The notes under the pieces are model-generated. The model ran no database searches and was not told where the DNA came from. It saw only the letters and a program-made list of their open reading frames with translations. Source: a virus. From it: DNA of 64,000 nt. Of the stretch, positions 48,301 to 64,000 are shown piece after piece. The stretch is taken from IMG/VR virus record IMGVR_UViG_3300031857_000027. One strand, written 5' to 3'. The translations under genes were made by a program, and so were the position numbers. How positions within the stretch are numbered: position 1 is the first letter of the stretch; each line of letters starts with the position of its first letter.

Positions 48301-48301
48301 T

Positions 48302-50034: not shown

Positions 50035-50049
50035 GTTTTTCCTCAGGTA

Positions 50050-50310: not shown

Positions 50311-50744
50311 GGCTTCTTGGCTGCTTCGTTCAAAATGCTTACTACGTTAGAATCAAGTTCGCATTTTGCATCAATAACTTTTTCCACTTCTTTAATCTTT
50401 TGGACAACAATCTCTCGTTTTTCAACGACTCTCTTTGTTCTCTCTCGGATTTTCGTTTCGATAACAACATTTGTCTGCTGTGATTTCGCTTCTGCATCTT
50501 TTATTTTCTCCTCTAATTCAGCCACTCTTTGGCGCCATTCTTGCTCGACGCTATAGCCTCCTTTCCAGTATATACCGATGCAAAGTAATGCTATGGAAAC
50601 GTATTTAATAACGTTTGCATAGTTGCCAATAAATGGCAGTCTACTACCTAAAAAACCCAATACGGCACCAACGGCACCGCAGATTAAAACAGTGTTGATG
50701 ATGAATAAAAGAAAGCCCGATGGCAAAAAACTAAGAAGCCACAT
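50307..50744 (-). CDS. i-spanin (Rz-like)
   Basis: N-terminal TMs plus coiled coil, adjacent to the o-spanin. Confidence 0.7.
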   Translation of the reverse strand: MWLLSFLPSGFLLFIINTVLICGAVGAVLGFLGSRLPFIGNYANVIKYVSIALLCIGIYWKGGYSVEQEWRQRVAELEEKIKDAEAKSQQTNVVIETKIRERTKRVVEKREIVVQKIKEVEKVIDAKCELDSNVVSILNEAAKKP

Positions 50745-50967
50745 TTGACTTTCTCTTTATAAATGAAATGAATGTTGCAGTCTTACGTTTCTTCACGCCG
50801 GGTTCACCTTGTGGTCCTACGCCGACACCTGCAATTGCACCACCACCCACAGCGTTAGTGGGCGCACCGCCCATGGCTCCAGCATCCTCTTTGAGTGGTT
50901 TGCAGACTTTATCGGTGCTACACCAATAATAACCTGCGCCACATTCTTTTTTAAATTCGTTCGACAT
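50731..50967 (-). CDS. Small late protein
   Basis: LKED..PTN..G.IAG..EPGV; late promoter at about 50974. Confidence 0.55.
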   Translation of the reverse strand: MSNEFKKECGAGYYWCSTDKVCKPLKEDAGAMGGAPTNAVGGGAIAGVGVGPQGEPGVKKRKTATFISFIKRKSNVAS

Positions 50968-50983
50968 AGTTTTATTTATGTGA

Positions 50984-51712
50984 TTAGTACCCTGTTCCAC
51001 CCACATTATAGCCAGTATATACAGTCCACGATGTTCCTGTGCTATTTCCTACCATGACATAACTCTGATTGGCAGTGACGCCACGATTTGATGGCCCCAA
51101 ATCACCACCTGTCAATTTCGCTGTAGAACTATACAAACCAGAAATGACACCAACATTGTTGTTTCCTCTTGCTTGTACACCAACAAGCAATTCAAGCCAT
51201 GGATTACCCGCAGTCAAACTTGGATTGAAGAATGTCAATTCATACACCATGTTAGGGCTGCCCGGTGTACCTGATGTTGATGCCGTACCTTCCCAACGCA
51301 GTCTTCTATAATCTGTGCCTGAAGCAATTGTAGATACTCTTTGCCAAGAATTGTCAGCACCAGCAAAAAAGATTTTATTGAGTGCTGGATTACTTGCACT
51401 TAAACCATTGAACACAGTTGAACCAGAACCAAATGTTACATAATAATTTGAGTTTGGGAAAAAACTTGTATAACCAGTGCTGTTATATGTCCAAGTAAAA
51501 GGAAGTGATACATTTGTGTTAGCATCGTCACCTGTTGCAGATATGATAGATGTCCAACCAGAAGCAGGAAAAGGACTTTGTGCGCCAGCACCAAGAACGG
51601 GTGCTTTCGTTCCAACTTCTAATGTGTAAACACCACTGGGCAATACACCAATACCACCATTGACATCAATACCACCTGTTATTGTTATGCCTGGTCCAAT
51701 GATGATTGTCAT
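50984..51712 (-). CDS. Virion structural protein
   Basis: IGPGITITGGI start; Ser/Thr/Gly-rich beta protein. Confidence 0.55.
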   Translation of the reverse strand: MTIIIGPGITITGGIDVNGGIGVLPSGVYTLEVGTKAPVLGAGAQSPFPASGWTSIISATGDDANTNVSLPFTWTYNSTGYTSFFPNSNYYVTFGSGSTVFNGLSASNPALNKIFFAGADNSWQRVSTIASGTDYRRLRWEGTASTSGTPGSPNMVYELTFFNPSLTAGNPWLELLVGVQARGNNNVGVISGLYSSTAKLTGGDLGPSNRGVTANQSYVMVGNSTGTSWTVYTGYNVGGTGY

Positions 51713-52101
51713 TTTAGATTTCTGAGAACCTCTGCGACATTCATATCAACTGGTATTTCTGATGATATAATGTCTGTATTGTTGATGCCACGAACTTTTT
51801 CGGGCATGAGATTTAAAAACAACAAGTATGTTTTGAGTATACTATAGTCGTCTTTATTGGTATGATAAAACATAATTCTTGTTGATACTTCAGGACCAAA
51901 AATATTGTACAGAACAACAATATGATTGAGTATCAGACGCTCACGCATTTCACCATGTTTAGAATAACGTCTGAATAATCTTTTGAGATAATTCAATCGT
52001 TTCATGTCTTCAGTGAATTCACTCATAACGCAATTAGGCCTATCATAGGCCTTTGCTGCGTACAACATTATATTGTCATCGGTTAGATTCTCAAAAGACA
52101 T
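51709..52101 (-). CDS. Conserved T4-like late hypothetical protein
   Basis: YLKRLF..ERLILNH..LKT.L.FLN. Confidence 0.7.
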   Translation of the reverse strand: MSFENLTDDNIMLYAAKAYDRPNCVMSEFTEDMKRLNYLKRLFRRYSKHGEMRERLILNHIVVLYNIFGPEVSTRIMFYHTNKDDYSILKTYLLFLNLMPEKVRGINNTDIISSEIPVDMNVAEVLRNLK

Positions 52102-52108
52102 AATCAAT

Positions 52109-52130
52109 GAGGCTGCCCGAAAGCAGCCTC
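52109..52130. terminator. Hairpin terminator / processing site
   Basis: GAGGCTGC-CCGAAA-GCAGCCTC. Confidence 0.6.
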
Positions 52131-52138
52131 TATTTCAA

Positions 52139-52717
52139 TTAAGCGTCAGGTGCGATAGCGTCATCGGATGCATCACCTTCCATTGAACCCATTGCTACTA
52201 GAGTTTCAAATGTGGTACGACCGTTACGACCGCCCATTGTAAAGGTGAATGCTGTGTTACCGAATGTGTTTGCTGTTGGTGTACCTGTGTACAAACCAGC
52301 GTTCGTAACTGTGACTGCTGTAATCCTACCAGTAGCAGCCGTTGTTACACTGACTTGTGCAGAGGTATTGTTTGTACCACCACCAGACAATATCAGTGTA
52401 TATGTGCAGGCTGTTGCTGCTGGACCTACAGCATTAGTATTTGCTGCGACCGAATCAATTCCACCTGCGCCTTTTGTACGTGCTACCCAACCAGCGTGTG
52501 TTGGTGTACCGTCAGTGATTAGACCTTCTTCTGTCGTATCAATACCAAATACACCAAACTCTACGTTAGTACGAGTGGCACTCATATATGTGTTGCCAAA
52601 TACTGATGAAGGCTGTGAATTAGCCAGGCTTTCACCAGTAGTTGATGTATCATAGCCAGTCAGACCTGAAAAGTTTGGAGCATTGTTAGATGCGTCTACA
52701 TTTCCCCAAAGTGACAT
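52139..52717 (-). CDS. Virion structural protein
   Basis: MSLWG.., HAGWV, ETLVAM..GD..DD. Confidence 0.7.
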   Translation of the reverse strand: MSLWGNVDASNNAPNFSGLTGYDTSTTGESLANSQPSSVFGNTYMSATRTNVEFGVFGIDTTEEGLITDGTPTHAGWVARTKGAGGIDSVAANTNAVGPAATACTYTLILSGGGTNNTSAQVSVTTAATGRITAVTVTNAGLYTGTPTANTFGNTAFTFTMGGRNGRTTFETLVAMGSMEGDASDDAIAPDA

Positions 52718-52748
52718 GTTTTTCTCCTATAAATCTTTGATTAGTTAT

Positions 52749-54368
52749 TTATGTTTTCTGTATATCGCTAGACAATTCGGGGTCTTTTTGAAACTTATCC
52801 GATGCCTGTTCTTGTTCTTGTTTTTTGCCCTTTGCGGCATCTCTAACAATCTGAGCCTTGCGTGATAGAGTTCTTGCTGCTGCGCTTGGATCGTCAGTGT
52901 TTTCACTCACAGACTTCCAACCACCACCCATTTCTTTGTATTTCTTCGCAGCCCAACCGTTAGCATATGCTGAAGGATATACATCAAACTTAGATTTTGC
53001 TTGTGCTTTAGCCTGCGCCCACTTCTCAGGTGATGTAGGCACATTCTTTTCTTCAAGATATTCAACATCTTCACCCATTGCTCTTTTTTGACTCTGTGTG
53101 TATTTTCTTTGTTTAACTGGTGACATAGATGCCATTGAAGCCTTTTTTCTGTCTCTTTCTACTGCACTATGATAACCACTTCTCAATCTAACTGCCTGAC
53201 CCAGATGTTCATCACCCGCTTCATCATGTCCTTTTGATCTGGCGTCTTTTCCTTTTTTTGTGGCTATTTTTGCAGCACGATCCAAAAGTGCAGGCGAAAG
53301 TTCATCAAGTTGTTCAGTCTCTTCTTTGACATGACCATACTTCTTTTTGTACCAGTCGGGCATACCACTCTTTTGACGGAAGTATCTTACTGTTGCAGAA
53401 TCGTTTGCTTGATCACGATATTTGTTTTCTGCTGTTGTATTATGGCTCTTCATTGCTTCTGCTGCTTTATGGGCATCTTTGGCAATATATTCCAATTCAG
53501 CATTCGTCTTCTTATGATACTCATGACCTTCTAGTGGATGGCGCTGTGATGGGCGACCTTCAGTGAGTTCAACTTCTTCTTTGTTGTATTTCTTTTTTAA
53601 ATACTTATCAACCTTGCGTTCGTATTCACCTTTTGGTTTCTTAGGAACAGGAGTGCCGTGTGGTGAAGGAACATATCGTTTAACTTCTTCATTCAGTTCA
53701 CCACGCAGATAGTTGGCTGCTGTAGAGATATAATCTTCAGCAAGTGTAATCTTTGATTGAACCCATTCTGGCAGATTTGTGTTTTCTTCCATCAAGTCCA
53801 TCATGTCTTGTGCATTGAACATCAGTGAACGAATTTGTGACATCGCCATATCACCTTCATAATCATACTCACGTGCATCTTTTGCTTCTTTAATTGGTGT
53901 AACAATCGTAGAAGACTTATATGGTTTTTTAACTGGTCCAGACACAAATCGTCCTTTCTTTTCTAATTGTTCATCAATCTCTGTTTCTTCAGAAACTCTT
54001 GATGCTTTCATGATACCACGAATCAGTGGTGCTTTGAGTTGCTTGTGTCTTGGAACAGCAATGTGTTCTTTTGACTTTGGATGCCCATATACATCATGGC
54101 CACCACCTGTGCGTTTCAATGTCCAACCTGATTTGCGAAGATGAGCATGAACATCACGTGTCTTCATGCTTGACTCTGGCATCTCATCAAGTTGTTCAAC
54201 TTCTTCCACTTTATATTTCTTTTTGATTTCAGATTGCTTCGCAAGTCTTTCTTTATCGTCAGAAATACCGTAAGAATGACCCAACTCTTTGTAATAGTCG
54301 GGATGTGGTAGTCCCGACTTCTTACGCAGAGCCATTTGTCGTTGATGTAATTTATCTGCGACTGACAT
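52749..54368 (-). CDS. Internal head polyprotein-like protein with a HicA-like RNase domain
   Basis: Repeated EE.EQLDE linkers; GW...GGHDVY.HP...IAVPRH. Confidence 0.7.
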   Translation of the reverse strand: MSVADKLHQRQMALRKKSGLPHPDYYKELGHSYGISDDKERLAKQSEIKKKYKVEEVEQLDEMPESSMKTRDVHAHLRKSGWTLKRTGGGHDVYGHPKSKEHIAVPRHKQLKAPLIRGIMKASRVSEETEIDEQLEKKGRFVSGPVKKPYKSSTIVTPIKEAKDAREYDYEGDMAMSQIRSLMFNAQDMMDLMEENTNLPEWVQSKITLAEDYISTAANYLRGELNEEVKRYVPSPHGTPVPKKPKGEYERKVDKYLKKKYNKEEVELTEGRPSQRHPLEGHEYHKKTNAELEYIAKDAHKAAEAMKSHNTTAENKYRDQANDSATVRYFRQKSGMPDWYKKKYGHVKEETEQLDELSPALLDRAAKIATKKGKDARSKGHDEAGDEHLGQAVRLRSGYHSAVERDRKKASMASMSPVKQRKYTQSQKRAMGEDVEYLEEKNVPTSPEKWAQAKAQAKSKFDVYPSAYANGWAAKKYKEMGGGWKSVSENTDDPSAAARTLSRKAQIVRDAAKGKKQEQEQASDKFQKDPELSSDIQKT

Positions 54369-54370
54369 GA

Positions 54371-55519
54371 TTAGTCCTTCTTGGCCATTTTCGTTGCAGT
54401 TGCATACATTACCGACTTAGCACGTTCACCATAACGCTGTTTGAAACCAGAAAGACCTTTCTTCATACCCATTACGTAATCTTCTTTCTTCTTGGCTTCA
54501 CCTTTTGTTAGTTCACGTTCTTCAATTTGCTGAACACTTTCTGGCATTTCTTTTACACCAGTTGTCTTACCTGCTGCAACTTTTGGTTGTTTCTTTTTGC
54601 CTTCAAAACTTGCTTTTTGGTCTTCATACTCTTTTGTGAACTCATCGTTTGTTGGTTCTTCTGACAACGATTCTTCTTTACGAAGTTTGCTCATTACTTC
54701 GCCAGCCTTTTGTTGTTTTTGTGCTTGATATGCTCTCTCTTTTGAGATAACATCCTTTACCACACCAGCAGCACCTTTTGCAACATCCATAATACCTTCT
54801 TCAATTTCTGTTGCAACAACGCCGTTTACTTTATCTGCATCAATAACTTCAATCATTCTACCATCAATATCCATCTCTTCTGTTTCAATTGGTGCTAACA
54901 CTTTCAGACCATGCTCATTGTACAGTTCAAGCATCTCTGTGAATGATGTTGATTCGTTCACACGTGTTGAACGCTTAAAGTTTTGACGGGCACCATAGCC
55001 ACCCTTTTTCTTCGGTGCATCATCTTCATCATTGTCATCTTTGTAGTCACGCTTGTGAACTAGACCTTTTGCTGTCTTTGTGACTGAGCCATGTTCTGTT
55101 TTACCAGCATCCATGCGCTTCTTTGCATCTGCTACAGTTGGAAATGCTTCGTTCAGTTGCTCTTGTTCAGTTGCTTCAACTTCTTCGTTCTTTTTGCCAT
55201 AGAAGTTATCTTTGTACATGCGTGATGTTGCCTTACGCAGACCTTTTGTGCGATCTTTTGTCTTGTCGGCAATTGCTTTGGTCACATATGAACCAAGTGC
55301 TTTTCTGCCCGCTGGTGTATCACCAACTTCATCTAATTGCTCAACTTCTTCTTTCTTCATATCTTTTTTAGCACGTAGAAGTTTGAAGTCGTGAGCATCA
55401 ACTTTGCCATTTTTGTTGGCATCAATTTTATGCTGATTGCCTTTTAGTTGTTCTTGTTGTAGAACCTTTGCTGCTGCTTCTGCTACACTTTTCAGTGCTT
55501 TGTCATTGAAAATTGACAT
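54371..55519 (-). CDS. Internal head / prohead-core-like protein
   Basis: EEVEQLDE and QLNE linkers; DANKNGKVDAHDF; VMYATATK.A. Confidence 0.65.
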   Translation of the reverse strand: MSIFNDKALKSVAEAAAKVLQQEQLKGNQHKIDANKNGKVDAHDFKLLRAKKDMKKEEVEQLDEVGDTPAGRKALGSYVTKAIADKTKDRTKGLRKATSRMYKDNFYGKKNEEVEATEQEQLNEAFPTVADAKKRMDAGKTEHGSVTKTAKGLVHKRDYKDDNDEDDAPKKKGGYGARQNFKRSTRVNESTSFTEMLELYNEHGLKVLAPIETEEMDIDGRMIEVIDADKVNGVVATEIEEGIMDVAKGAAGVVKDVISKERAYQAQKQQKAGEVMSKLRKEESLSEEPTNDEFTKEYEDQKASFEGKKKQPKVAAGKTTGVKEMPESVQQIEERELTKGEAKKKEDYVMGMKKGLSGFKQRYGERAKSVMYATATKMAKKD

Positions 55520-55544
55520 TTTAGTTCTCCTGATTTAGTTTTTG

Positions 55545-56855
55545 TTATCTTGTGACTTCTTCCCAATCCATCGATGCGTAGATATCAGAACCATTAACTG
55601 ATGCTGCCACGCATAATGTGAGTTCGAAGGGTGTATTGGTCAATCCATTTCTTTCTAATTGAAATTTGAATAGTGCTTCTCTAAGAATATCCACTGGTAT
55701 AGAACTTTGTGTAGTAGAAGTTGTAAAGCCCGATGCTAATATTCTTCCACCTGAAATTGTTGCGGCATCTAATTTATATTCAACAGCAGAATTAACTCCT
55801 GCACTTTCCCATGTTCCACCTGTTGTTGTACCACCCGCCCTGAGTTGCCAGTTATAATATGAGTTGTTAGTTAATGCTAATAAAGATAGTGCAGTAATAA
55901 TGACAATCGCATCTAATCTATCCGATTTCAATCTCAAAGAAATGAGATTATAATATGTTCCAGCAACGGCCAAATCAATTGGGCTAGTAACTGGTGTGCC
56001 TATGGCTTGCTGCGATCCAAGCAATTCATATCCACCTTCAGATATAACGGACGAGCAAATCTGTTTGAGTGTGGAATTACTTGCTGTAATACCTGTGTTC
56101 TTGATTTCATAACGCAACGGTAAAGATGCCGTTGTCATATAAGGAACAGTATTCCTATTGTCATTGTGAAATATGTGGGCAGGAACCATTTTACCATCAA
56201 CCACAAATCCACAGCGAACATCACCAACACCCAACCACTCAACATCCATCCAAAGAATATTTGTCTTACTTACATCAATGCCACCAGCATGTTCAGCACC
56301 ACCACTTTGAGATGAATAACCCGTACCGTCAAACTTGTCTATATTCCAATCTGTTTGTGCAACTTTTGTTTCTGTAATTGTTCCTGTTGTATTACTTCTT
56401 AGCACAAAATAGTTTGTTGTACCCTCATTCTCAAAATAGATACCGTTTTCGGCGCCATAATAACCAACTCTCTGACGAACATTTGCTTTAGGTGTTTCCA
56501 TAGCAAATGACGACATCATTAACAAAGACTTACCTGGTTGATATGAAAACACTCTTGTTGTTTCACGAATGACTTCAGCATTTGCTGTAGTTCCCACAGT
56601 CATCACAATCATACTTTGATTGTTTACAAAAGCATATGAACTATTTCCTGCTGTATTTGATGTTGACCACAGTCCGTTATCAGCAAAGCGATGTGTACTA
56701 TCAAAAAGAGTAAATGGTTGTGATAGACGAAGACGACCAAACGCATCTGTGATTGTACCAGATGGCGTAAGACGATCAGACATCATATTCACCTCATAAC
56801 GAGTGAATACTTGTCCTGAATCTATCTTATGTAAGTCGGTTCTAAACTGTGCCAC
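55545..56855 (-). CDS. Virion structural protein
   Basis: DAFGRLR, YQPGKS, EWLGVG, MTTASLP.RYEI. Confidence 0.7.
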   Translation of the reverse strand: MAQFRTDLHKIDSGQVFTRYEVNMMSDRLTPSGTITDAFGRLRLSQPFTLFDSTHRFADNGLWSTSNTAGNSSYAFVNNQSMIVMTVGTTANAEVIRETTRVFSYQPGKSLLMMSSFAMETPKANVRQRVGYYGAENGIYFENEGTTNYFVLRSNTTGTITETKVAQTDWNIDKFDGTGYSSQSGGAEHAGGIDVSKTNILWMDVEWLGVGDVRCGFVVDGKMVPAHIFHNDNRNTVPYMTTASLPLRYEIKNTGITASNSTLKQICSSVISEGGYELLGSQQAIGTPVTSPIDLAVAGTYYNLISLRLKSDRLDAIVIITALSLLALTNNSYYNWQLRAGGTTTGGTWESAGVNSAVEYKLDAATISGGRILASGFTTSTTQSSIPVDILREALFKFQLERNGLTNTPFELTLCVAASVNGSDIYASMDWEEVTR

Positions 56856-57350
56856 TTAGCAGTTCCACTTTCTCAATGCTTTATTAATACGTGAATCTGG
56901 ATCACGTGCTGTCTTTGCTGATGTTAGTCTACGCTTCATCCCACCCATTCTGGCGCAAAATGACTTACGACGATTTGCTGCCTTAGAACCTGCTTTTAGT
57001 TTACTTGGTTTCGTTGTCACAGCAGTTTGTAATTTTGAACCAGGATTTTCACGACGATATGACTCAACACCTTTTTGATTCAAACCACCTTCTGGATTTT
57101 TACCTTCTTTACGCTGCCATGCTGCAACTTCTTCTAATTGTTCTTCTGTAAGTGGACCATCATCGGCTTCATAATCTTCTTTTTTTAACTTCATCATCTT
57201 CGGCTTTGTGAATACAGGATTATCTGCACCACCAGCACCACCTTCTCTCTCTTCTCTTACGCATGAGCCTTTTGCATATGCTTTTTTACCCGGCGCTGGT
57301 TTATATCCAGGCCAACATCTTTCATCCATCAGTTGTTTGAATGATTTCAT
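56856..57350 (-). CDS. Conserved internal virion protein
   Basis: MKSFKQ..E, CWPGY, AAWQRKEGKN..GGLN, RRKSFCARM. Confidence 0.7.
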   Translation of the reverse strand: MKSFKQLMDERCWPGYKPAPGKKAYAKGSCVREEREGGAGGADNPVFTKPKMMKLKKEDYEADDGPLTEEQLEEVAAWQRKEGKNPEGGLNQKGVESYRRENPGSKLQTAVTTKPSKLKAGSKAANRRKSFCARMGGMKRRLTSAKTARDPDSRINKALRKWNC

Positions 57351-60049
57351 ACGTAGTTTCTCTTTTTAAATGTTATAAGTGAGATACCTTTTTTCTTCAA
57401 TTCATCTTCTTTTTGATCACCAATTGATGCTGTCGTTTCATCACCAGTAAGTTCACTAATATTCTTAGGCACAACTTGTGTTGCTTTACCCTTTTTACTC
57501 AACTTCTCACCCATGTCTCTAGCAGGAGATTCACCAGCACCTGCCATTGAAATACCAGGTTCAATGCCTCTGTCAATCTCAGAAATTATTTCTCTTTCTT
57601 CGGCTTTCTTCTGGAAGTTTTCTTTGATGGTGGCAAGGCTGATGGTTCTTCTTCCTTCGGCAACGGGTTTGTCAAGGGCTGGTCGTTCTTTTCTTCCAGT
57701 ACCGGTTCTAACCTTACCGAGTTGTTGGGCTGACGGGGTGGAACTATTCTGTCCATAAAGTGCTTCAATCGCAGAATGATCAGGTGAATGTATTTCATGC
57801 AAGTCCTCTTTTAATTTAACAACGTATCTGTTACCAACTTTTGCTACTGTGCCATTTTTTTGGTGTGCTTCTTTTGCTGCTGAACCACGAATGTAAAACA
57901 ATCTTGTCTTACCGTTCTTGTCTGTCAATAACTTCTGTTTCTTTTGCGTTTCTTCAAACTGTTTACCAATTAACTTTGTGCCAGAAACATGTTGAATCAT
58001 TTTCCATGCTTCTTTGTGATTCTTGTTCGCAAGATGTTCTTTGAATTTTTTCTTCTGTTCTGGTGTAGCCTTCTGATGAAACTTCATGACTTCCATCATG
58101 CCAATGTTACCTTCATATGCCGCTTCACTGATCTTACCTTTGCCATAGTTTGAAACATTGATTGGCTCACCCTTGCGTTCTGGATTAGGATCATGGCGGC
58201 GTTTTGAAGCCACGGCAGCAGCACGTTCTTTCTTAGATAGTGATGCTCTCTTTTCGTTTGACATACATTTTGGTTTTGCTTCACCTGGTTCTCTGGCGCA
58301 AGGACCAATTGCTTCACCTTTGCTATTGATGCGCTTCCAGCCACCTTCTGGATCAGTTTTACTAAACCACTTACGTAAATCTTCTTTAATCATACCTCTA
58401 CCTAATGTCAGTAGATTGTAAGCACCAGCATCAGACATTGTGTTTACTTCTTCTTCCTCTGTCATCTCTTCTTCATCTGACTTGAGCAAACGAAGTGTGC
58501 GTGTGACTTCTTCTACTGTATCACCTGTAACTGATACTGTGACTGCTTCATTCATCTTGGCCATTTTGTTTTGATGTGTCTCAACAGTCTTTGCAATTTT
58601 CTCTACCGGCACTAAACTACCATGCACTGAACGATGTGTAACTTTGCCGTCTTTACCATAACGGCCAAAGCCATAATACTCTAGACCCATCTTGGACATA
58701 TCTTCATGTGTGCCAGCATCGGCATGTGGTTTCATATCAGTACGAATCGGTGCAGTATCTTTCTTACCCAACTCTGTAGCAATCCAACCTTTTGCCAAAT
58801 CATTCTTCGGTGGCTTGCCGACGAACTTTTGCATGTTTTTAAAAATGCCATCAAGTTCTTTTGTCTTTGCTTCTACAACTTCCGGTGCTGCTGTACGCAA
58901 ATCTTCTGAATTATCAAACTCAACATAGTTGTCACGAAATAGTTTACCAAACATTGGTCGTGCTGCTTGTACAGATTCCCATTTCTCTTTACGAATGTCT
59001 TCTGGCACTGTACGACCACCACGTTGACCACGTTCAATGTTTCTTTCTTTTGATACTTCGTCTGCTGTATTGACCATGACCATGGATGTTTCATAGCCTA
59101 ACTTCTCAAGCATCTCTTTGATCTTGGCATACTTTTCTGGATCATCACCAGTACCATTGATGATCAATCCATTACGACCATGAAGTGCTAAACGTTGACG
59201 CAATTCTGTAACGTTCTTTGCTCTTTTACGAACAGCATTACGTTGTGATTCTTCATTCTCTGGCATCTTCTTATCAAGGTTTTCTTTGTCCATCAGATAC
59301 TCAAGTGCTTTATCAGAATTGATTTCTGTTAGACCATGACCATCTAGTGTCTTGCTTAACACATAGTCTTTGCCTGAACCAGGACCACCACCTAGAAATA
59401 CTGCTTTGAAAATACCTTTGTCGTGTACACCCTCACGAATGATTTCTTCGTGAAGTCTCATACCTTTACGTACATCATTGAACATTTGCTTGACATGAGC
59501 ATGAGACATTGATGATGGTGCGCCTTTCTTGAATGAATCAAGATCGCCACTCTTTGCGTGTTCACGCATTTTAGAAGCAGAAATGCCAGTTACACCTTCA
59601 GCATCAGGATCACGTTCACCTGCTGAGTGTACTTTGATTTCTTTGAAGTTGAAACGGGCACCTTCATGTGTGCCATTGTACTTGTGTAGCAGTCTGTGAT
59701 ATTCTTCTGTGCGGTCAGAACCACCAACCATGTGAAGATGTGTTACACCCTTCTTGTGTAATGCTTCGGCATGGTCAAAGAATGTTGGTTTTTCTTTAGA
59801 TGCTGCTGTGAAATTCGTGCCAGAAAATGCTCTCTTGGCATGTTTGACTTTTTGATCTGCTGTAAGGGGATTCTTCTTGGCGTCCTGTGAATGTGACAGA
59901 ACGATATGATGTGAGCCGCCAACTTTATCGGCGATCTCTTTGACTTTATTGACTAGTTTTTCGTGACCGTTTGTAATCGGATTCATGCGACCAAATGCTA
60001 GGACGGCATGTTTCTCTTTCTGTTCACGTAGAAAATCTCTAAATTTCAT
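57347..60049 (-). CDS. Multidomain protein: cytidyltransferase-like plus zeta-toxin-like P-loop kinase plus further modules
   Basis: FGRMNPITNGH, GSDR, SAGERD..SASKMR; FLGGGPGSGK, INSD, RN.ER..R.VP. Confidence 0.75.
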   Translation of the reverse strand: MKFRDFLREQKEKHAVLAFGRMNPITNGHEKLVNKVKEIADKVGGSHHIVLSHSQDAKKNPLTADQKVKHAKRAFSGTNFTAASKEKPTFFDHAEALHKKGVTHLHMVGGSDRTEEYHRLLHKYNGTHEGARFNFKEIKVHSAGERDPDAEGVTGISASKMREHAKSGDLDSFKKGAPSSMSHAHVKQMFNDVRKGMRLHEEIIREGVHDKGIFKAVFLGGGPGSGKDYVLSKTLDGHGLTEINSDKALEYLMDKENLDKKMPENEESQRNAVRKRAKNVTELRQRLALHGRNGLIINGTGDDPEKYAKIKEMLEKLGYETSMVMVNTADEVSKERNIERGQRGGRTVPEDIRKEKWESVQAARPMFGKLFRDNYVEFDNSEDLRTAAPEVVEAKTKELDGIFKNMQKFVGKPPKNDLAKGWIATELGKKDTAPIRTDMKPHADAGTHEDMSKMGLEYYGFGRYGKDGKVTHRSVHGSLVPVEKIAKTVETHQNKMAKMNEAVTVSVTGDTVEEVTRTLRLLKSDEEEMTEEEEVNTMSDAGAYNLLTLGRGMIKEDLRKWFSKTDPEGGWKRINSKGEAIGPCAREPGEAKPKCMSNEKRASLSKKERAAAVASKRRHDPNPERKGEPINVSNYGKGKISEAAYEGNIGMMEVMKFHQKATPEQKKKFKEHLANKNHKEAWKMIQHVSGTKLIGKQFEETQKKQKLLTDKNGKTRLFYIRGSAAKEAHQKNGTVAKVGNRYVVKLKEDLHEIHSPDHSAIEALYGQNSSTPSAQQLGKVRTGTGRKERPALDKPVAEGRRTISLATIKENFQKKAEEREIISEIDRGIEPGISMAGAGESPARDMGEKLSKKGKATQVVPKNISELTGDETTASIGDQKEDELKKKGISLITFKKRNYV

Positions 60050-60091: not shown

Positions 60092-60799
60092 TTAGTAAAC
60101 TTCTAGCGTGTTTGTGGTGGCCACGGTCCCTTGACAATGAATTTGATCCAATTCAACTAGAATTTCTTTGTTTAGCACAAGAAAGTGAGCATGTTCCGTG
60201 TCAATTCTAGTCTGATTTGTTACCGTAATGATTTGTCGTAAAGATTCTAGATAATTGTCTATCAAAGACGGACAGAAAGAATACATTCTGGTAATAAGAA
60301 GATTTGTTGCAAACTCCTTACGACTGTCGGTTAACCATGTTGGTATTCTTTTCTTGAACACATATTTACCAAAGTGATCATGTTCGTGAATATCAAAAGA
60401 ATTCAACAAATCTGTTCTACCTGACAATTTAAAGACTCTATTTACAGACAACATAATCTTGGCCAGATGTGGTTCTTGTTTTAGAAGCAGAAGAGTTTTC
60501 ATCAATAAAGTGCTTTCAGCCTCACTTTTGCGATGATTAACTGCAAATGTACTAATCATTTCATCACTGGAAAAGTCGGCTACAAAATCAACACAGTCTG
60601 AAATGATTTTGATTTTTTCTTCTTCAACTTTGTGTGGTGAACCATCAACGAATAAAACAATAGCGTCAGGTACTTTTTCTCTTAATAATTGTAATCCGTC
60701 TATAGTTTGTTCTAATCGTTCTTCACGTTTAATTTCACCCATGTCTGTGTTGAGTGCTGAAGTTACAATAAAAAGTTTGCGATCAGGTATCAGTGCCAT
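60092..60799 (-). CDS. Glycosyltransferase-like hypothetical protein
   Basis: IVTSA, RL.QT, VDGS, FKLSGR. Confidence 0.5.
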   Translation of the reverse strand: MALIPDRKLFIVTSALNTDMGEIKREERLEQTIDGLQLLREKVPDAIVLFVDGSPHKVEEEKIKIISDCVDFVADFSSDEMISTFAVNHRKSEAESTLLMKTLLLLKQEPHLAKIMLSVNRVFKLSGRTDLLNSFDIHEHDHFGKYVFKKRIPTWLTDSRKEFATNLLITRMYSFCPSLIDNYLESLRQIITVTNQTRIDTEHAHFLVLNKEILVELDQIHCQGTVATTNTLEVY

Positions 60800-61464
60800 T
60801 CAAACTCCGAAAATAATTTAATTGTTTTGTATGTTGCTTTAGAATTCAATACATGAACTATTGTGTTAGTAATTTCCTTTGTATCTAACATTTTATCTTT
60901 AGAAGTATGTTTATCTTGCATTGGTGTTTTGATACCACCAGGATGAATACTTGTCACACGAATCTCATTCATTTGTGTATGCAGTTCAGAGCCCAACGCA
61001 CCAGCAAATGCAGTAATAGCATGTTTAGATGCCGAGTAAACTGCTTCCCATTCCATCTCTTTAAGACCTGCTACAGAGTTAATGAAGATAATATTACTAC
61101 CTTTGTTCATTAACTTGAGTGCTTGCAGTGTCACATACATTGTGCCTTTAACGTTCAAATCAATAATTTGATCTATCTTTTCAACTGTAAAATAACTTTT
61201 GAAACGCCCCCACTCATATATACCCGCATTGTTTACAAGCACATCAATGTATGTGCCAATTCTTTCAAATGCGGCTTTAACTTGATCTGACTTTGAGATA
61301 TCACATTCTATCCACTGAAATGTATCCGGTGCAGAAAATAGTTTTACTGGTGGTTTTGTGCGTGAAAGACCATACACGAAATAACCTTCATCAATCAGCC
61401 TATCTGCAATATCATGGCCAAGGCCATAACTACATCCTGTAACCACGGCAACTTTACGCATCAC
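60790..61464 (-). CDS. Short-chain dehydrogenase/reductase
   Basis: TGCSYGLG, NNAG, YSASK, PGG..T. Confidence 0.9.
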   Translation of the reverse strand: MMRKVAVVTGCSYGLGHDIADRLIDEGYFVYGLSRTKPPVKLFSAPDTFQWIECDISKSDQVKAAFERIGTYIDVLVNNAGIYEWGRFKSYFTVEKIDQIIDLNVKGTMYVTLQALKLMNKGSNIIFINSVAGLKEMEWEAVYSASKHAITAFAGALGSELHTQMNEIRVTSIHPGGIKTPMQDKHTSKDKMLDTKEITNTIVHVLNSKATYKTIKLFSEFEWH

Positions 61465-62597
61465 ATCTCCTCAAAAACATCAATCGCAAGTTTCATTTCA
61501 TCTTCAGTAACATCATTCACAATCTTATAGTTACCAATTGCAATAGGCAGTGGTGCATATTGATTGCCGTTACGGTGTTTAGTTGCATCACGTAGACTCT
61601 CCAACAAATACTTCATATTGGTAAAGTCTTTATGAAATGTTTTCAGTTTCAATCTTTTTGCAACACCAAAGATTCGTTTCAATTGAACTGTGTCAATGTA
61701 GCCACGAATGAATGAGATACACGAACTATACAAACAATCTAATGCTACTGCTTCACCATGCAACAACTCTGGTATATTAGACATCTCAATTACAGGACTG
61801 AATGTGTGACCAAAATCTACGCAACGGTCTAATCGTTTTTCCCATAGATTCGGTCCAAGTTCTGCAATCATGTCTGTGATAGCAAGATTGATTACACGAA
61901 CTGGCACCGCACCATATTGAAACTTTTCATCAATCAGTATCTCTGCATTCTCTTCTAGCAGATGAAAAAGTTCTGGTGATTTGATAACTGCAAGTTTGAA
62001 TATTTCTGCAATGCCATTTACAATCTCACGTTCACTTTGCGTCTTGATAAACTTTTTATCAATGTATGTTGCAAGTGGTGGATAGTACGCACCGATACGA
62101 TTGCGTCTGCCTAGATGATTGACTCCAACTTTAGAGCCTACAGAAGCGTCAACGATGGCAAGAAGTGTTGTGGGAATTTTAACGTAGGGAATTCCACGAC
62201 GGTATATGCTACAAGCAAAGCCAACAATGTCCAGCAGAACACCTCCGCCAATTGCGATAATAGGTTCACGGCGTAACACTCCATATTGTTCAAAAAAGTC
62301 CAAAATACGATCAACATTTTTCCAATTCTTATTTTCTTCTTTGCAGTCTACGCAAAGTATTTTACAACTCAACTTGACTGCACCAAAATATGCTGCGATA
62401 CTATCTTTGTATAAATCATGTACTTCAGAATCAATCACGATAATTCTACGCTCACTATTCGTGATGTTTACAATATCTTGATTGCTTGGGCTAAAGATGT
62501 CAGCAGAGTATGTAAGTTTGAATTCTACTGGTAGTTCTGTTTTAACTGACCAAGTTCGTTTGAACTTGTCATAATCCATCATAAAGTCTAAACTCAT
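61461..62597 (-). CDS. Sedoheptulose 7-phosphate cyclase (EEVS-type, DHQS superfamily)
   Basis: GGGVLLD, PTTLLA.VDAS, MIAELGPNLWE, DFGH, LLHGEAV, RNG. Confidence 0.8.
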   Translation of the reverse strand: MSLDFMMDYDKFKRTWSVKTELPVEFKLTYSADIFSPSNQDIVNITNSERRIIVIDSEVHDLYKDSIAAYFGAVKLSCKILCVDCKEENKNWKNVDRILDFFEQYGVLRREPIIAIGGGVLLDIVGFACSIYRRGIPYVKIPTTLLAIVDASVGSKVGVNHLGRRNRIGAYYPPLATYIDKKFIKTQSEREIVNGIAEIFKLAVIKSPELFHLLEENAEILIDEKFQYGAVPVRVINLAITDMIAELGPNLWEKRLDRCVDFGHTFSPVIEMSNIPELLHGEAVALDCLYSSCISFIRGYIDTVQLKRIFGVAKRLKLKTFHKDFTNMKYLLESLRDATKHRNGNQYAPLPIAIGNYKIVNDVTEDEMKLAIDVFEEM

Positions 62598-63547
62598 TTC
62601 ATCGCCTTACTAAACAATTTACATGCATGAACATAAAAATACTTGGCTTTGTTGATATCACCCGCAATCAACTTAAATGGTAGCATACGAATGAACTGTG
62701 ATGCTTCTAGTATATCTATGAGTTTCATTTTATCTTCTGGCAACTCAGAGATAAAGTGTTTGTTGAACGTGTCAAAGTGTTCTGTGCCGCCATGAGGATT
62801 GAACAGATCAATTCCTATAACACGAACATCACGGTCGTTGATGAAACCATAGTGACTACGTGAACACTGAAGCACTTGTGCATAATCAAGATACTTGGTG
62901 TTCCACATACTTTCATCATATGTATCAATAAAAACTACACGATCTTCTTCAAATGAATACATGATGTTTTCAAGTGTGGGATTACCATGAATATTACACT
63001 CATCATCGTTTTCCAATTCTGCAAAGTATTCTTGCAAAACTTGAAGATAACCACCAATACCTACAATAAGGTCTCCGTTGAAACCATATGTGCCACGATA
63101 AAAGAAGTCTTTGAATGATGGCAGACTTATTGCATCAGCAATCTTCTGATCAATCTCTTCATCAAAATAAAGTCTTGGCGCACCAGGAATAGGTTCTTTT
63201 TTAATTGAATGAAGAGTATTCAAACCTTTCCAAACCGCTTGGCTCATTCTGAAGATTTGATCTTCACTCAATATGTCTTTGCTGAGAATGCTTTTGATGT
63301 CACGAAAACCTTCAAGGTATTCTAAATCAAACCATGCAGTTGTTTTGTTTGAATCTACATTCACAACTTTAGGAAACAAGCCAGGATATAGTGTATTGTA
63401 TTCTTGTAATTTCTTTAACTGAGAATACCAACGCATAAAACCATATTCACGATTTTCTATGCGTGAAATTTCTTTACGAACGATCTTCTCATCTGGTAGC
63501 CAGTAAGTTCTACTGAGTGAGCCACCTTTCAATGATATAGTTTTCAT
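62594..63547 (-). CDS. APH/choline-kinase-like phosphotransferase
   Basis: LKGGSLS, VRK, IHGNPTLENI, FID, DYAQ. Confidence 0.7.
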   Translation of the reverse strand: MKTISLKGGSLSRTYWLPDEKIVRKEISRIENREYGFMRWYSQLKKLQEYNTLYPGLFPKVVNVDSNKTTAWFDLEYLEGFRDIKSILSKDILSEDQIFRMSQAVWKGLNTLHSIKKEPIPGAPRLYFDEEIDQKIADAISLPSFKDFFYRGTYGFNGDLIVGIGGYLQVLQEYFAELENDDECNIHGNPTLENIMYSFEEDRVVFIDTYDESMWNTKYLDYAQVLQCSRSHYGFINDRDVRVIGIDLFNPHGGTEHFDTFNKHFISELPEDKMKLIDILEASQFIRMLPFKLIAGDINKAKYFYVHACKLFSKAMK

Positions 63548-63999
63548 TTTGCACCTAATGTTTGCCTTGCTATCTCAATTCCGTATTCTTGAGGACTGCC
63601 TAAAACAATCGTTTCTTGGTTACTACCAAGAGGATTCATGAATACTTGTTTATTAGATTGTATCATACTTTGTATCACATCTGCAATATATAATTCACCA
63701 TCTTTTTCGGCTAACTTGTTATAATATTCTAGATAAAGATGACCCGTCAGGAAACCATAGAAGCCTGATGATGCATACGGTGAGATTTGTTTCTTTTCTA
63801 CAATTTCAATTACCGTATTTTCAAATGCACGAACATAAGAATACTTTGGTGAGTTGCCCACAAAAACATCAATATATGCATCATGCTTTGCGGTTAAGTC
63901 ATCAGCAATAAAATCTATACGACGACCTTTAATAATTGTATCTGCATTGTGTACGAACGTTGGTAAATATTTGTTGTTCAGTTGTTCAATACCAATTGC
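63544..63999 (-). CDS. Sugar-phosphate nucleotidyltransferase (5' truncated)
   Basis: Frame is open to the window end: HNADT, YSYV, IVEK..IS..ASSG.Y, ELYIA, LGSPQE. Confidence 0.75.
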   Translation of the reverse strand, partial: AIGIEQLNNKYLPTFVHNADTIIKGRRIDFIADDLTAKHDAYIDVFVGNSPKYSYVRAFENTVIEIVEKKQISPYASSGFYGFLTGHLYLEYYNKLAEKDGELYIADVIQSMIQSNKQVFMNPLGSNQETIVLGSPQEYGIEIARQTLGAK

Positions 64000-64000
64000 T

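What the first reader, a model, noticed from the sequence alone, without database searches (positions are those of the whole stretch)
60092..63999. Phage C7-cyclitol-like pathway: EEVS-type cyclase, kinase, nucleotidyltransferase, SDR and GT-like gene
Seen: five translationally coupled genes. The DHQS-superfamily protein has MIAELGPNLWE...DFGH, matching the EEVS-type MLEELxPNLxE signature rather than AroB or the DDGS-type MLELExPNL. Established knowledge: EEVS converts sedoheptulose-7-P to 2-epi-5-epi-valiolone, and acarbose/validamycin pathways follow it with kinase, reductase, nucleotidyltransferase and pseudo-glycosyltransferase steps. Inference: the phage may make an NDP-activated carbasugar to decorate DNA, the virion or the host surface with a glycosidase-resistant group. 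gmhA elsewhere in the window uses the same substrate. The kinase has HGN where APH-family enzymes have a catalytic HGD.
Basis: partly seen in the sequence, partly recalled or inferred. Interest (0 to 1): 0.8.

Follow-up and report, generated by a model that had tools for sequence, protein, structure and literature searches.

The report
Phage cassette for an activated carbasugar
An uncultured T4-like phage carries eight tightly packed genes whose four-gene core, also found in bacterial surface-sugar loci, most likely turns the common metabolite sedoheptulose 7-phosphate into a nucleotide-activated seven-carbon ring "pseudo-sugar"; I found no paper describing this in a virus, and no step has been tested at the bench.

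Summary
Five overlapping minus-strand genes lie at 60092-63999, and every quoted motif is present. The unit runs past the window end and has eight genes: GT-like, methyltransferase, DUF7796, nucleotidyltransferase, kinase-like, cyclase, SDR and a GT-A-fold protein. All 37 related viral contigs keep this order.

- **Cyclase:** it is an EEVS-type sedoheptulose-7-phosphate cyclase. It scores 287 bits to ValA, 223 to DDGS and 144 to AroB, and it has ValA's residues at four discriminating sites.
- **Origin:** phage cyclases form one clade (100/100) nested among bacterial cyclases that sit beside the same kinase-like and nucleotidyltransferase genes. Two of three such loci with Pfam-annotated neighbours are LPS or capsule loci (Polynucleobacter, a MAG).
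- **Kinase-like protein:** every member has HGN where kinases have a catalytic Asp. This is a family trait and remains unexplained.
- **Last gene:** it models confidently as a GT-A fold.

Best reading (about 0.6): cyclase, ketoreductase, kinase and nucleotidyltransferase make an NDP-cyclitol, which phage transferases then use. The acceptor is unknown. DNA seems least likely.

Only the cyclase is clearly homologous to the acarbose and validamycin enzymes. The scan noted this cassette in at least 10 other genomes, and those follow-ups agree. I read them after forming my own view.

The parts
63544..64000 (-). 3' part (C-terminal 151 aa) of a 243-aa sugar-1-phosphate nucleotidyltransferase-like gene. 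The gene runs past the window end; the complete gene is L002:15064-15795.
   Evidence: The complete protein hits PF00483 at 43.9 bits, cut-off 21.2. The fragment alone scores 19.3 bits. The best solved relative is 4EVW, a Vibrio cholerae NDP-sugar pyrophosphorylase, at 1.7e-18. NCBIfam gives only RmlA/GlmU-like matches far below their cut-offs. Conserved at 67-100% identity in phage loci and 35-56% in bacterial module loci.
62594..63547 (-). Kinase-like protein of the APH / protein-kinase-like fold, 317 aa, with Asn in place of the catalytic Asp (HGNxTLEN). It is the candidate cyclitol kinase.
   Evidence: Pfam APH scores 22.8 bits against a cut-off of 23.2. Atlas neighbours are APH clusters. 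In a family alignment of 22 phage and bacterial members, KGGSL, K25, E34, G188-N189, T191-L192-E193-N194 and D208 are invariant and H187 is nearly so. The best PDB profile match is the JAK2 JH2 pseudokinase catalytic loop IHGN..KN, E 0.003. The gene overlaps both neighbours by ATGA.
61461..62597 (-). [quoted passage not shown]
   Evidence: Hits DHQ_synthase and DHQS_C. All aroB-type NCBIfam models score below their cut-offs. PDB phmmer gives ValA 4P53 at 2.1e-84 (287 bits), DDGS 5TPR at 223 bits and AroB at 144 bits or less. W252, D261, P268 and H341 match ValA. The protein shares 40 of 54 clade-specific EEVS columns. In the ML tree the phage clade (100/100) is nested among bacterial module cyclases.
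60790..61464 (-). Classical short-chain dehydrogenase/reductase, 224 aa. It is the candidate ketoreductase acting on the cyclase product.
   Evidence: adh_short hits at 1.9e-44. The TGxxxGxG, NNAG and YSASK motifs are present. The closest solved relatives are generic keto/alcohol reductases. Most bacterial modules keep an SDR in this position, but the Prochlorococcus-type modules have an aldo-keto reductase instead, as expected if the role is a ketoreduction.
60092..60799 (-). GT-A-fold protein, 235 aa, found here only in viral contigs and unassigned metagenome contigs. It is a candidate transferase.
   Evidence: No hit in Pfam, NCBIfam or PHROGs. An AlphaFold2 model built on a 40-sequence alignment has pLDDT 90.5 and pTM 0.89. 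Foldseek against the PDB finds alpha-1,3-GalT, glycogenin and Kre2 at E about 1e-6 and TM about 0.5. VIA-align gives Z 12.4-14 over 180-200 residues to GT-A enzymes of both inverting and retaining kinds. It is the least conserved cassette gene, at 52-70% identity among phage loci, and was not found in bacterial module loci.

Best explanation
The phage carries an eight-gene cassette whose four-gene core makes a nucleotide-activated C7 cyclitol (a carbasugar). The proposed steps are:
1. The cyclase converts sedoheptulose 7-phosphate into 2-epi-5-epi-valiolone or a close isomer, releasing phosphate.
2. The SDR reduces the ring ketone to a hydroxyl.
3. The kinase-like protein phosphorylates the cyclitol.
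4. The nucleotidyltransferase joins it to an NMP, giving an NDP-cyclitol.
5. The phage's own GT-like proteins use the product. These are the GT-A-fold gene at 60092-60799, plus DUF7796 and the 280-aa GT-like gene beyond the window end. The methyltransferase may add a methyl group.

The acceptor is most likely a glycoconjugate, either the infected cell's envelope glycan or a virion protein.

What is shown: gene order, coupling and conservation; the family and fingerprint of the cyclase; the folds and families of the other proteins; and the presence of the same core in bacterial surface-glycan loci. What is inferred: every chemical step, the order of steps 2 to 4, the nucleotide used and the acceptor.
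For: **Cyclase type.** It scores 287 bits to ValA, 223 to DDGS and 144 to AroB. Residues W252, D261, P268 and H341 equal ValA's. DDGS has H, A, P and T at these sites, and the AroB sequences have K/R, N, H and a variable residue. The metal ligands E198, H264 and H280 are invariant. It shares 40 of 54 EEVS-clade-specific columns, against 43% overall identity.

**Self-contained core.** NT, kinase-like, cyclase and reductase genes are adjacent in the phage. They are also adjacent in Gammaproteobacteria, Magnetovibrionaceae, Balneolaceae, Myxococcales, Fibrobacteria, Desulfobulbaceae, Polynucleobacter and Prochlorococcus genomes. All cyclases with this neighbourhood form one clade (91/89), and the phage clade (100/100) sits inside it.

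**Reductase swap.** An SDR is replaced by an aldo-keto reductase in some modules. This fits a ketoreduction step.

**Bacterial context.** In Polynucleobacter the neighbours are ManC, GT2, a Wzz-like gene, GT9 and dTDP-sugar genes. In a MAG they are Wzz, Poly_export, GT1 and an acyltransferase. The module is patchy within genera, as surface-glycan islands are: 1 strong hit in 101 genomes and 1 in 42.

**Related fusions.** Among more distant homologues, cyclases are fused to ROK kinases, and in one case to an NTP_transferase. This fits the known kinase and nucleotidylation steps of cyclitol pathways (PMC9200736).

**Transferase candidates.** The last gene has a GT-A fold. A DUF7796 homologue sits directly beside the module in a Balneolaceae genome.

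**Conservation.** All eight genes keep their order in 37 viral loci.
Against: - No step has been assayed.
- The kinase-like protein lacks the catalytic Asp in every member (HGN). Its nearest solved motif match is a pseudokinase.
- The phage and module clade is separate from the clade that holds the ValA-like enzymes, so the product could be an isomer or another cyclitol. EboD shows that EEVS-like enzymes can make a different product (title cited in PMC12904256).
- Known pseudoglycosyltransferases use unsaturated GDP-valienol (own knowledge). No epimerase or dehydratase was recognised here, and transfer of a saturated carbasugar by a GT is chemically hard.
- The GT-A fold is shared with nucleotidyltransferases such as IspD (Z 12.4).
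- DUF7796 and the 280-aa protein have no assigned activity.
Confidence: 0.6

Rival explanations
1. Steps 1 to 4 are the same, but the NDP-cyclitol is a CDP-alcohol-type donor. A cyclitol-phosphate, not the cyclitol, is transferred onto a glycan as a phosphodiester-linked decoration. This is how LicA, LicC and LicD add phosphocholine, and how CDP-glycerol and CDP-ribitol feed teichoic acids.
For: The pairing of an APH-fold kinase with an NTP_transferase-fold enzyme matches LicA/LicC (own knowledge). It avoids the difficult displacement at a saturated carbocyclic carbon. No dehydratase or epimerase that could give an allylic, valienol-like donor was recognised.
Against: No LicD-, TagF- or Stealth-type phosphotransferase was recognised in the cassette. 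The one transferase candidate with a model has a GT-A fold. The nucleotidyltransferase scores best against sugar-1-phosphate enzymes of the RmlA/GlmU type.
Confidence: 0.2
2. The kinase-like protein is not a kinase. It is a pseudokinase scaffold or catalyses other chemistry such as NMP transfer, so the pathway does not run through a cyclitol phosphate as proposed.
For: Asn replaces the catalytic Asp in all 22 members examined. The best solved motif match is the JAK2 JH2 pseudokinase loop. The Pfam APH score is just under the cut-off.
Against: The ATP-binding elements are invariant: the Gly-rich loop, K25, E34, N194 and D208. Strict conservation beside a nucleotidyltransferase that needs a phosphorylated substrate makes a kinase role the simplest reading. 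No other kinase candidate sits in the four-gene core.
Confidence: 0.1
3. The product is a carbocyclic mimic of an NDP-heptose. It acts as a dead-end inhibitor of host heptosyltransferases, changing the LPS core as a receptor, rather than being built into a glycan.
For: It uses the same precursor as the ADP-heptose route, and the steps run in parallel (isomerase or cyclase, kinase, nucleotidyltransferase; own knowledge). The phage also has a lone GmhA-like gene.
Against: The bacterial modules sit inside the bacteria's own LPS or capsule loci, where an inhibitor makes little sense. The phage cassette also carries three transferase-like genes and a methyltransferase.
Confidence: 0.07
4. The cassette makes a free small molecule, for example a gadusol-like UV screen, from EEVS plus methyltransferase plus oxidoreductase.
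For: In vertebrates, EEVS with a methyltransferase-oxidoreductase makes gadusol (PMC4426668). The cassette holds a methyltransferase and an SDR.
Against: The methyltransferase is missing from 4 of the 37 phage loci (L022, L028, L029, L039), and tblastn found no homologue of the phage methyltransferase in any bacterial module locus, though some carry unrelated methyltransferases. This reading leaves the kinase-like protein, the nucleotidyltransferase and three transferase-like genes without a role.
Confidence: 0.05
5. The activated cyclitol is attached to phage DNA as a hypermodification, as T4 glucosylates hydroxymethylcytosine.
For: This is a T4-like phage. The cassette lies next to the replication genes (helicase, UvsX, DNA polymerase) and a dCMP deaminase. 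All eight proteins are soluble.
Against: The record has no thymidylate-synthase or dCMP-hydroxymethylase family member, although it is only about 75% complete. The homologous bacterial modules are in surface-glycan loci.
Confidence: 0.04
6. The cyclase is an ordinary AroB, supplementing host shikimate metabolism.
For: Some JGI records name homologues 3-dehydroquinate synthase. TIGR01357 gives 215 bits.
Against: That score is far below the cut-off of 305. ValA scores twice as high as any AroB. N268 and H275 of the DHQS numbering are replaced by Asp and Pro. True AroB sequences form the outgroup of the tree.
Confidence: 0.01

Closest known systems
GDP-valienol branch of acarbose and validamycin biosynthesis (AcbC/ValA cyclase, AcbM/ValC and AcbU kinases, AcbR/VldB nucleotidyltransferase, AcbS/VldE pseudoglycosyltransferases; PMC9200736)
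   Same: It starts from sedoheptulose 7-phosphate with an EEVS-type cyclase (287 bits to ValA, same fingerprint). The cyclitol is then phosphorylated, nucleotidylated and transferred.
   Different: Only the cyclase is clearly homologous, and it falls in a separate clade. The kinase is APH-like with HGN, not ROK-like. The nucleotidyltransferase is a short RmlA-like form with no pairwise similarity to a GlgC-like NT fused to a cyclase. No epimerase, dehydratase or phosphatase was recognised. The transferase candidate has a GT-A fold, whereas the known pseudoglycosyltransferases are GT-B enzymes (own knowledge). The setting is a virus and bacterial surface-glycan loci, not an actinomycete antibiotic cluster.
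Uncharacterised bacterial four-gene module (kinase-like, cyclase, reductase, nucleotidyltransferase), for example in Polynucleobacter sp. 80A-SIGWE, Prochlorococcus sp. AG-424-E20 and a Gammaproteobacteria MAG
   Same: These are direct homologues of all four core genes. In the Gammaproteobacteria MAG, identities are NT 56%, kinase 47%, cyclase 64% and SDR 43%, in the same order. The HGN motif is the same, and the cyclases fall in one clade.
   Different: The bacterial modules lack the phage GT-A-fold gene and the 280-aa gene. They sit among Wzz, Wza, GT and dTDP-sugar genes. I found no paper on the module, so it gives no tested function to transfer.
LicA/LicC/LicD phosphocholine decoration of bacterial surface glycans
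   Same: An APH-fold small-molecule kinase is paired with an NTP_transferase-fold enzyme to activate an alcohol for addition to a glycan (own knowledge; folds).
   Different: The substrate is made de novo by a cyclase and a reductase. No LicD-type transferase was recognised. The kinase has Asn where LicA-type kinases have the catalytic Asp.
ADP-heptose pathway (GmhA, HldE, GmhB)
   Same: It uses the same precursor, sedoheptulose 7-phosphate, followed by a kinase and a nucleotidyltransferase, and it feeds LPS (own knowledge). A GmhA-like gene is present elsewhere in the window.
   Different: The first enzyme is a cyclase that makes a carbocycle rather than an isomerase. The kinase and nucleotidyltransferase belong to different families.
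Virus-encoded nucleotide-sugar and glycosylation systems (chlorovirus and mimivirus sugar pathways, mycobacteriophage virion glycosylation, LPS-type genes of T4-like cyanophages)
   Same: A virus carries its own route to an activated sugar, plus transferases (own knowledge).
   Different: Those systems make true sugars. Here the predicted product is a carbocyclic sugar mimic. No deposited phage genome among 50,697 records has an EEVS-type cyclase.

Membership tests
EEVS-type sedoheptulose-7-phosphate cyclase (sugar phosphate cyclase superfamily) | DHQS-like two-domain architecture with the three metal ligands | tested here: met
   PF01761 at 6.7e-36 and PF24621 at 9.1e-19. E198, H264 and H280 are invariant in the family alignment and align to the ValA ligand positions.
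EEVS-type sedoheptulose-7-phosphate cyclase (sugar phosphate cyclase superfamily) | Closer to a characterised EEVS than to DDGS, DOIS or DHQS | tested here: met
   ValA 4P53 287 bits, DDGS 5TPR 223 bits, AroB 144 bits or less, DOIS 95 bits.
EEVS-type sedoheptulose-7-phosphate cyclase (sugar phosphate cyclase superfamily) | Fingerprint residues that separate EEVS from DDGS and DHQS. PMC4426668 cites Kean 2014 for a 14-residue fingerprint. The list itself was not available, so I tested the sites visible in the PDB alignments. | tested here: met
   PNLWE, VDFGH, FSP and KHR all equal ValA. DDGS has PNLHE, IAYGH and LTR. AroB has K/R, LNYGH and TFGH. The protein shares 40 of 54 clade-specific columns. 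The full 14-site list was not checked.
EEVS-type sedoheptulose-7-phosphate cyclase (sugar phosphate cyclase superfamily) | Falls inside a clade that contains a biochemically characterised EEVS | tested here: inconclusive
   The phage and module clade (91/89) is separate from the actinobacterial clade, whose member L064 scores 405 bits to ValA. The branches joining the large clades are weak (27/59, 50/73). Named ValA, AcbC, EVS, DDGS and EboD sequences could not be put in the tree.
EEVS-type sedoheptulose-7-phosphate cyclase (sugar phosphate cyclase superfamily) | Converts sedoheptulose 7-phosphate to 2-epi-5-epi-valiolone | not testable with these tools
   Needs an enzyme assay.
APH / eukaryotic-like small-molecule kinase | Score over the Pfam APH gathering threshold | tested here: not met
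   22.8 bits against a cut-off of 23.2. Atlas neighbours are APH clusters.
APH / eukaryotic-like small-molecule kinase | ATP-binding elements: Gly-rich loop, beta3 Lys, helix-C Glu, Mg-binding Asn and Asp | tested here: met
   KGGSL, K25, E34, N194 and D208 are invariant in 22 members.
APH / eukaryotic-like small-molecule kinase | Catalytic Asp of the HxD motif | tested here: not met
   HGN in all 22 phage and bacterial members, with G188 and N189 invariant. It aligns to the HGN loop of the JAK2 pseudokinase domain.
Sugar-1-phosphate nucleotidyltransferase (PF00483) | Score over the Pfam threshold across the whole domain | tested here: met
   The complete 243-aa protein scores 43.9 bits against a cut-off of 21.2, over profile positions 3-215 of 245. 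4EVW hits at 1.7e-18. Substrate and nucleotide specificity were not tested.
Classical SDR | Cofactor motif TGxxxGxG and catalytic Ser...YxxxK | tested here: met
   adh_short at 1.9e-44. VTGCSYGLG, NNAG and YSASK can be read in the sequence.
GT-A glycosyltransferase | GT-A fold | tested here: met
   Model pLDDT 90.5. Foldseek E about 1e-6 to GT6, GT8 and GT15 enzymes. VIA Z 12.4-14 over 180-200 of 235 residues.
GT-A glycosyltransferase | DxD metal/nucleotide motif and demonstrable membership of a CAZy GT sequence family | tested here: inconclusive
   There is no sequence-family hit. D75, S77 and D79 are invariant after strand 72-75, but I did not map them onto a ligand site. IspD, a nucleotidyltransferase of the same fold, also scores Z 12.4.
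Acarbose/validamycin-type C7N-cyclitol pathway | ROK-type EEV/valienone kinase, cyclitol epimerase, dehydratase, GlgC-like nucleotidyltransferase and GT-B pseudoglycosyltransferase | tested here: not met
   No cassette protein hits ROK or any epimerase- or dehydratase-type family. The nucleotidyltransferase is unrelated at pairwise level to a GlgC-like cyclase-fused NT. The transferase candidate is GT-A.

The most novel reading that the evidence does not exclude
A virus encodes a complete route to a nucleotide-activated carbocyclic sugar mimic and installs it in a cell-surface or virion glycan. The same four-gene module would then be an unrecognised and widespread bacterial route to surface polysaccharides that carry carbasugars. 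It would run on a kinase family that works without the canonical catalytic Asp.
Probability: 0.4. Interest if true: 0.85.

Novelty: new variant of a known kind. Interest (0 to 1): 0.7.

Why it matters
C7 cyclitols are known as building blocks of antibiotics, enzyme inhibitors (acarbose, validamycin) and sunscreens (gadusol). They are not known as parts of surface glycans, nor as products of viruses.

If the reading is right:
- An abundant group of uncultured aquatic T4-like phages diverts a pentose-phosphate intermediate into a sugar mimic that glycosidases are not expected to cut. That would bear on receptor masking, superinfection exclusion and virion protection.
- A patchily distributed bacterial module, found in Polynucleobacter, Prochlorococcus, myxobacteria and others, would point to an undescribed class of surface-polysaccharide constituent.
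- The module would supply a compact four-enzyme route to NDP-carbasugars for glyco-engineering.
- The invariant HGN kinase-like family would pose a clear mechanistic question.

Tried and rejected
- **DNA search:** blastn of the region against 50,697 phage records found nothing. tblastn found only AroB-level hits of 31% identity or less, in host-like or unannotated records.
- **Papers:** Kean 2014, Osborn 2017 and the 2017 review were not held, so I could not check the published 14-residue list. Searches linking valiolone, cyclitols or EEVS to phages, viruses, O-antigen or capsule found nothing relevant.
- **Reference sequences:** named ValA, AcbC, EVS, DDGS and EboD sequences could not be brought into the tree. 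Cluster look-ups gave no useful names, and control genomes give no loci. I used true AroB from four named genomes as the outgroup and a PDB score to place ValA's clade.
- **Tree model:** the careful tree under the C20 mixture model did not finish in 713 s. The reported tree uses LG+G4. One search printed a wrong residue map, which one search corrected.
- **Folding the last gene:** a single-sequence run failed with pLDDT 42. The alignment-based run succeeded.
- **Relating the three transferase-like families:** profile-profile comparison found nothing, though the profiles were shallow at Neff about 2. Pairwise comparison also found nothing. The Atlas hints to WavE (0.90) and DUF7796 (0.88) for the last gene remain untested leads.
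- **Bacterial homologues of the extra genes:** HMM searches of the bacterial module loci found no relative of the last gene or the 280-aa gene, and one DUF7796 relative.
- **Late promoter:** there is no conserved late-promoter motif directly upstream of the first cassette gene. Only the Shine-Dalgarno GGAG is conserved. The one TATAAATA, 2.8 kb upstream, is no more than chance predicts, and the sigma-70 and terminator scans were at background. Expression timing is therefore unknown.
- **Other genes:** no transaldolase and no thymidylate-synthase family gene is in the record.

Full report
**What is there.** The window is the reverse strand of a 133-kb IMG/VR virus record, classed as linear and about 75% complete. 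The record encodes a family-B DNA polymerase, UvsX, a DnaB-like helicase, dCMP deaminase, DUF6267 and several 2OG-Fe(II) oxygenases. Its polymerase is about 52% identical to those of T4-like cyanophages. It is therefore an uncultured T4-like phage. Earlier notes of this scan call it freshwater, which I did not check.

At 60092-63999 five minus-strand ORFs overlap one another: ATGA twice, GTGATG once, and 10 nt once. Reading past the window end (locus L002) shows the unit has eight genes:
- a 280-aa protein with a weak PHROG glycosyltransferase hit;
- a Methyltransf_24 methyltransferase (230 aa);
- a DUF7796 protein (237 aa);
- a PF00483 nucleotidyltransferase (243 aa; the window holds only its last 151 aa);
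- an APH-like protein (317 aa);
- a DHQS-family cyclase (378 aa);
- a classical SDR (224 aa);
- a 235-aa protein with no family hit.

None has a predicted membrane helix.

**Is it real and conserved?** A scan of IMG/VR found 37 loci with cyclases 72-99% identical. tblastn of the eight proteins shows the same eight genes in the same order wherever the contig is long enough. The methyltransferase is missing from four loci. [quoted passage not shown] Conservation is uneven. The cyclase is the most conserved gene and the last gene the least (52-70%). In some loci a 95%-identical cyclase sits beside a 56%-identical kinase-like gene, which suggests recombination inside the cassette.

**The cyclase.**
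- Against all solved structures the best match is ValA, the validamycin EEVS (4P53; 2.1e-84, 287 bits). Next come the Anabaena DDGS (5TPR, 223 bits), AroB enzymes (144 bits or less) and DOIS (95 bits).
- All aroB-type NCBIfam models score far below their cut-offs.
- The printed alignments show PNLWE, VDFGH, FSP and KHR as in ValA. DDGS has PNLHE, IAYGH and LTR. AroB has a Lys or Arg, LNYGH, TFGH and a Lys.
- The eLife paper on gadusol states that such fingerprint sites separate EEVS from DDGS (PMC4426668). The primary papers were not held.
- Of 54 alignment columns that are at least 90% conserved in 35 actinobacterial EEVS-like proteins and differ in four true AroB, the phage enzyme shares 40. 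Its overall identity to that group is 43%.

**Where it came from.** A search of 1.8 billion cluster representatives and of one genome per prokaryotic species gave the relatives. I built a maximum-likelihood tree of 81 sequences under LG+G4 with ultrafast bootstrap and SH-aLRT support, rooted on AroB from four named genomes.
- The phage cyclases form one clade (100/100).
- That clade is nested in a group (91/89) in which every genome-derived member with a readable neighbourhood has the same APH-like gene next to it, and most also the same nucleotidyltransferase. The group also holds metagenome cluster representatives whose neighbourhoods were not read.
- The nearest relatives are a Gammaproteobacteria MAG (64% identity), a metagenome contig and a Magnetovibrionaceae MAG.
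- The group is separate from the mostly actinobacterial clade, one member of which scores 405 bits to ValA. The branches joining the large clades are weak.
- All of these share the W-D-P-H fingerprint.

The phage enzyme is therefore EEVS-like by sequence and active-site pattern, but it does not sit inside a clade with an assayed enzyme. The EboD case, an EEVS-like enzyme reported to make a C6 inosose (title in PMC12904256; PMC5133447), warns that the product still needs an assay.

**The four-gene core.** tblastn and gene tables show nucleotidyltransferase, kinase-like protein, cyclase and reductase side by side in the following:
- a Gammaproteobacteria MAG, in the same order as the phage, with identities of 56, 47, 64 and 43%;
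- Balneolaceae, several Myxococcota, Fibrobacteria, Desulfobulbaceae and Polynucleobacter sp. 80A-SIGWE.

Magnetovibrionaceae, Prochlorococcus sp. AG-424-E20 and an NCBI MAG have NT, kinase-like gene and cyclase. In the last two an aldo-keto reductase stands where the SDR would be, which is what one expects if the job is simply to reduce a ketone.

The contexts point to surface glycans.
- In Polynucleobacter the module lies between ManC, GT2 and a Wzz-like gene on one side, and a GT9 heptosyltransferase, a dTDP-sugar isomerase, an aminotransferase and split transketolase genes on the other.
- In the MAG it lies with Wzz, Poly_export, GT1 and an acyltransferase.
- The kinase-like family was found strongly in only 1 of 101 species genomes of the Polynucleobacter genus sample and 1 of 42 of the Prochlorococcus sample. 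This is a patchy, accessory distribution.

More distant cyclase homologues are often fused to ROK kinases, and once to a GlgC-like nucleotidyltransferase. These are the enzyme types of the acarbose and validamycin routes (PMC9200736).

**The kinase-like protein.** Three lines place it in the APH / protein-kinase-like fold:
- Pfam APH at 22.8 bits against a 23.2 cut-off;
- Atlas neighbours;
- a PDB profile match to kinase catalytic loops.

The Gly-rich loop, the beta3 Lys, the helix-C Glu, the Mg-binding Asn and the DFG-like Asp are invariant. The catalytic Asp, however, is Asn in all 22 phage and bacterial members. The best solved match is the HGN loop of the JAK2 pseudokinase domain, which I take to be a coincidence of motif. 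HGN is thus a fixed family trait and not decay in this phage. Whether these proteins phosphorylate without the usual base, or do something else, is open. A kinase role is inferred only because the neighbouring nucleotidyltransferase needs a phosphorylated substrate and no other candidate exists.

**The transferase candidates.** The last gene gave a poor model alone. With a 40-sequence alignment the model is confident, at pLDDT 90.5. Foldseek and VIA-align match it to GT-A glycosyltransferases: GT6, GT8, GT15, GT43 and GT13, with E about 1e-6 and Z 12.4-14 over 180-200 residues. The matches include both inverting and retaining enzymes and one nucleotidyltransferase of the same fold, so the mechanism cannot be read off.

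DUF7796 has no known activity, but a homologue sits directly upstream of the module in the Balneolaceae genome (E 1.7e-13). I could not link the three transferase-like families to one another.

**Most likely mechanism.** The proposed chain is: sedoheptulose 7-phosphate to 2-epi-5-epi-valiolone (cyclase), to a reduced cyclitol (SDR), to a cyclitol phosphate (kinase-like protein), to an NDP-cyclitol (nucleotidyltransferase). The phage's GT-like proteins then use it, with optional methylation. I put about 0.85 on the cyclase type, about 0.6 on the NDP-cyclitol, and less on any particular acceptor.

A chemically attractive variant is transfer of cyclitol-phosphate, as in the Lic phosphocholine system, because displacement at a saturated carbocyclic carbon is hard.

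For the target:
- the bacterial contexts favour envelope glycans;
- virion glycosylation is equally compatible with soluble cytoplasmic enzymes;
- DNA modification is least favoured, since no thymidylate-synthase-family hydroxymethylase is present, though the record is incomplete.

Expression timing could not be inferred.

**Comparison with the known.** The system works like the GDP-valienol branch of acarbose and validamycin biosynthesis, but it is not a member of that pathway family. Only the cyclase is clearly homologous, and the ROK kinase, epimerase, dehydratase, phosphatase, GlgC-like nucleotidyltransferase and GT-B pseudoglycosyltransferase are not matched. Its true relatives are the uncharacterised bacterial modules. 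I found no paper describing either the phage cassette or the bacterial module. No deposited phage genome carries an EEVS-type gene.

**Earlier notes of this scan.** After forming this reading, I looked up the scan's notes. The same cassette had been noted in at least ten other genomes, and several follow-up reports reached the same conclusion. They are not independent evidence, but they show the finding is recurrent across related phages.

**Verdict.** This is a new variant of a known kind of pathway, in a setting (a virus, and bacterial surface-glycan loci) where it has not been described. Interest 0.7.

Noticed in passing
window 39104-40510 (-): A phage-encoded phosphate-selective porin O/P homologue, 468 aa, Porin_O_P at 2.6e-48. 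This is an outer-membrane auxiliary gene and implies a Gram-negative host.
   Followed up: no
window 34392-35276 (-): A D-Ala-D-Ala carboxypeptidase (Peptidase_S11, 5.8e-34) carried by the phage.
   Followed up: no
window 36268-36891 (-): A lone GmhA-like SIS protein, 159 bits to TIGR00441 against a cut-off of 209, with no other heptose-pathway gene nearby. It uses the same substrate as the cyclase.
   Followed up: partly
window 57347-60049 (-): The 900-aa protein just downstream of the cassette combines a cytidylyltransferase-like N-terminus with a zeta-toxin / AAA_33-like P-loop kinase and a long low-complexity tail.
   Followed up: no
L017:9051-10001, L020:6980-7927 against their cyclases: The cassette is mosaic. 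In these phage loci the cyclase is 95% and 83% identical to the window's, but the adjacent kinase-like gene is only 56% and 52% identical. This suggests recombination between cassette variants.
   Followed up: no
P0129, P0135, P0139 (ROK::cyclase), P0149 (cyclase::NTP_transferase), P0132 (AMP-binding::cyclase), P0122 (2653 aa with ROK, cyclase and Zn-ADH): Many distant cyclase homologues are fused to pathway partners. This is a ready-made Rosetta-stone set for cyclitol pathways.
   Followed up: partly
L047:6251-7012: A DUF7796 homologue lies directly upstream of the kinase-like gene in a Balneolaceae MAG (E 1.7e-13). It is the only bacterial link found for any of the phage's extra genes.
   Followed up: partly
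kinase-like family, alignment A5: The family profile's best match among solved structures is the JAK2 JH2 pseudokinase domain, through the shared IHGN..KN catalytic loop (E 0.003). This is probably a coincidence, but it underlines the missing catalytic Asp.
   Followed up: partly
L002:875-1738 and L002:158-766, 5349-5894, 9505-10068: Upstream of the replication genes there is another GT-like gene (DUF4422, 1.7e-19), and there are several 2OG-Fe(II) oxygenase or cupin genes.
   Followed up: no
window 42761-56324: The window differs from the laid-out genome record at 84 single positions, all within this stretch. None is in the cassette.
   Followed up: no
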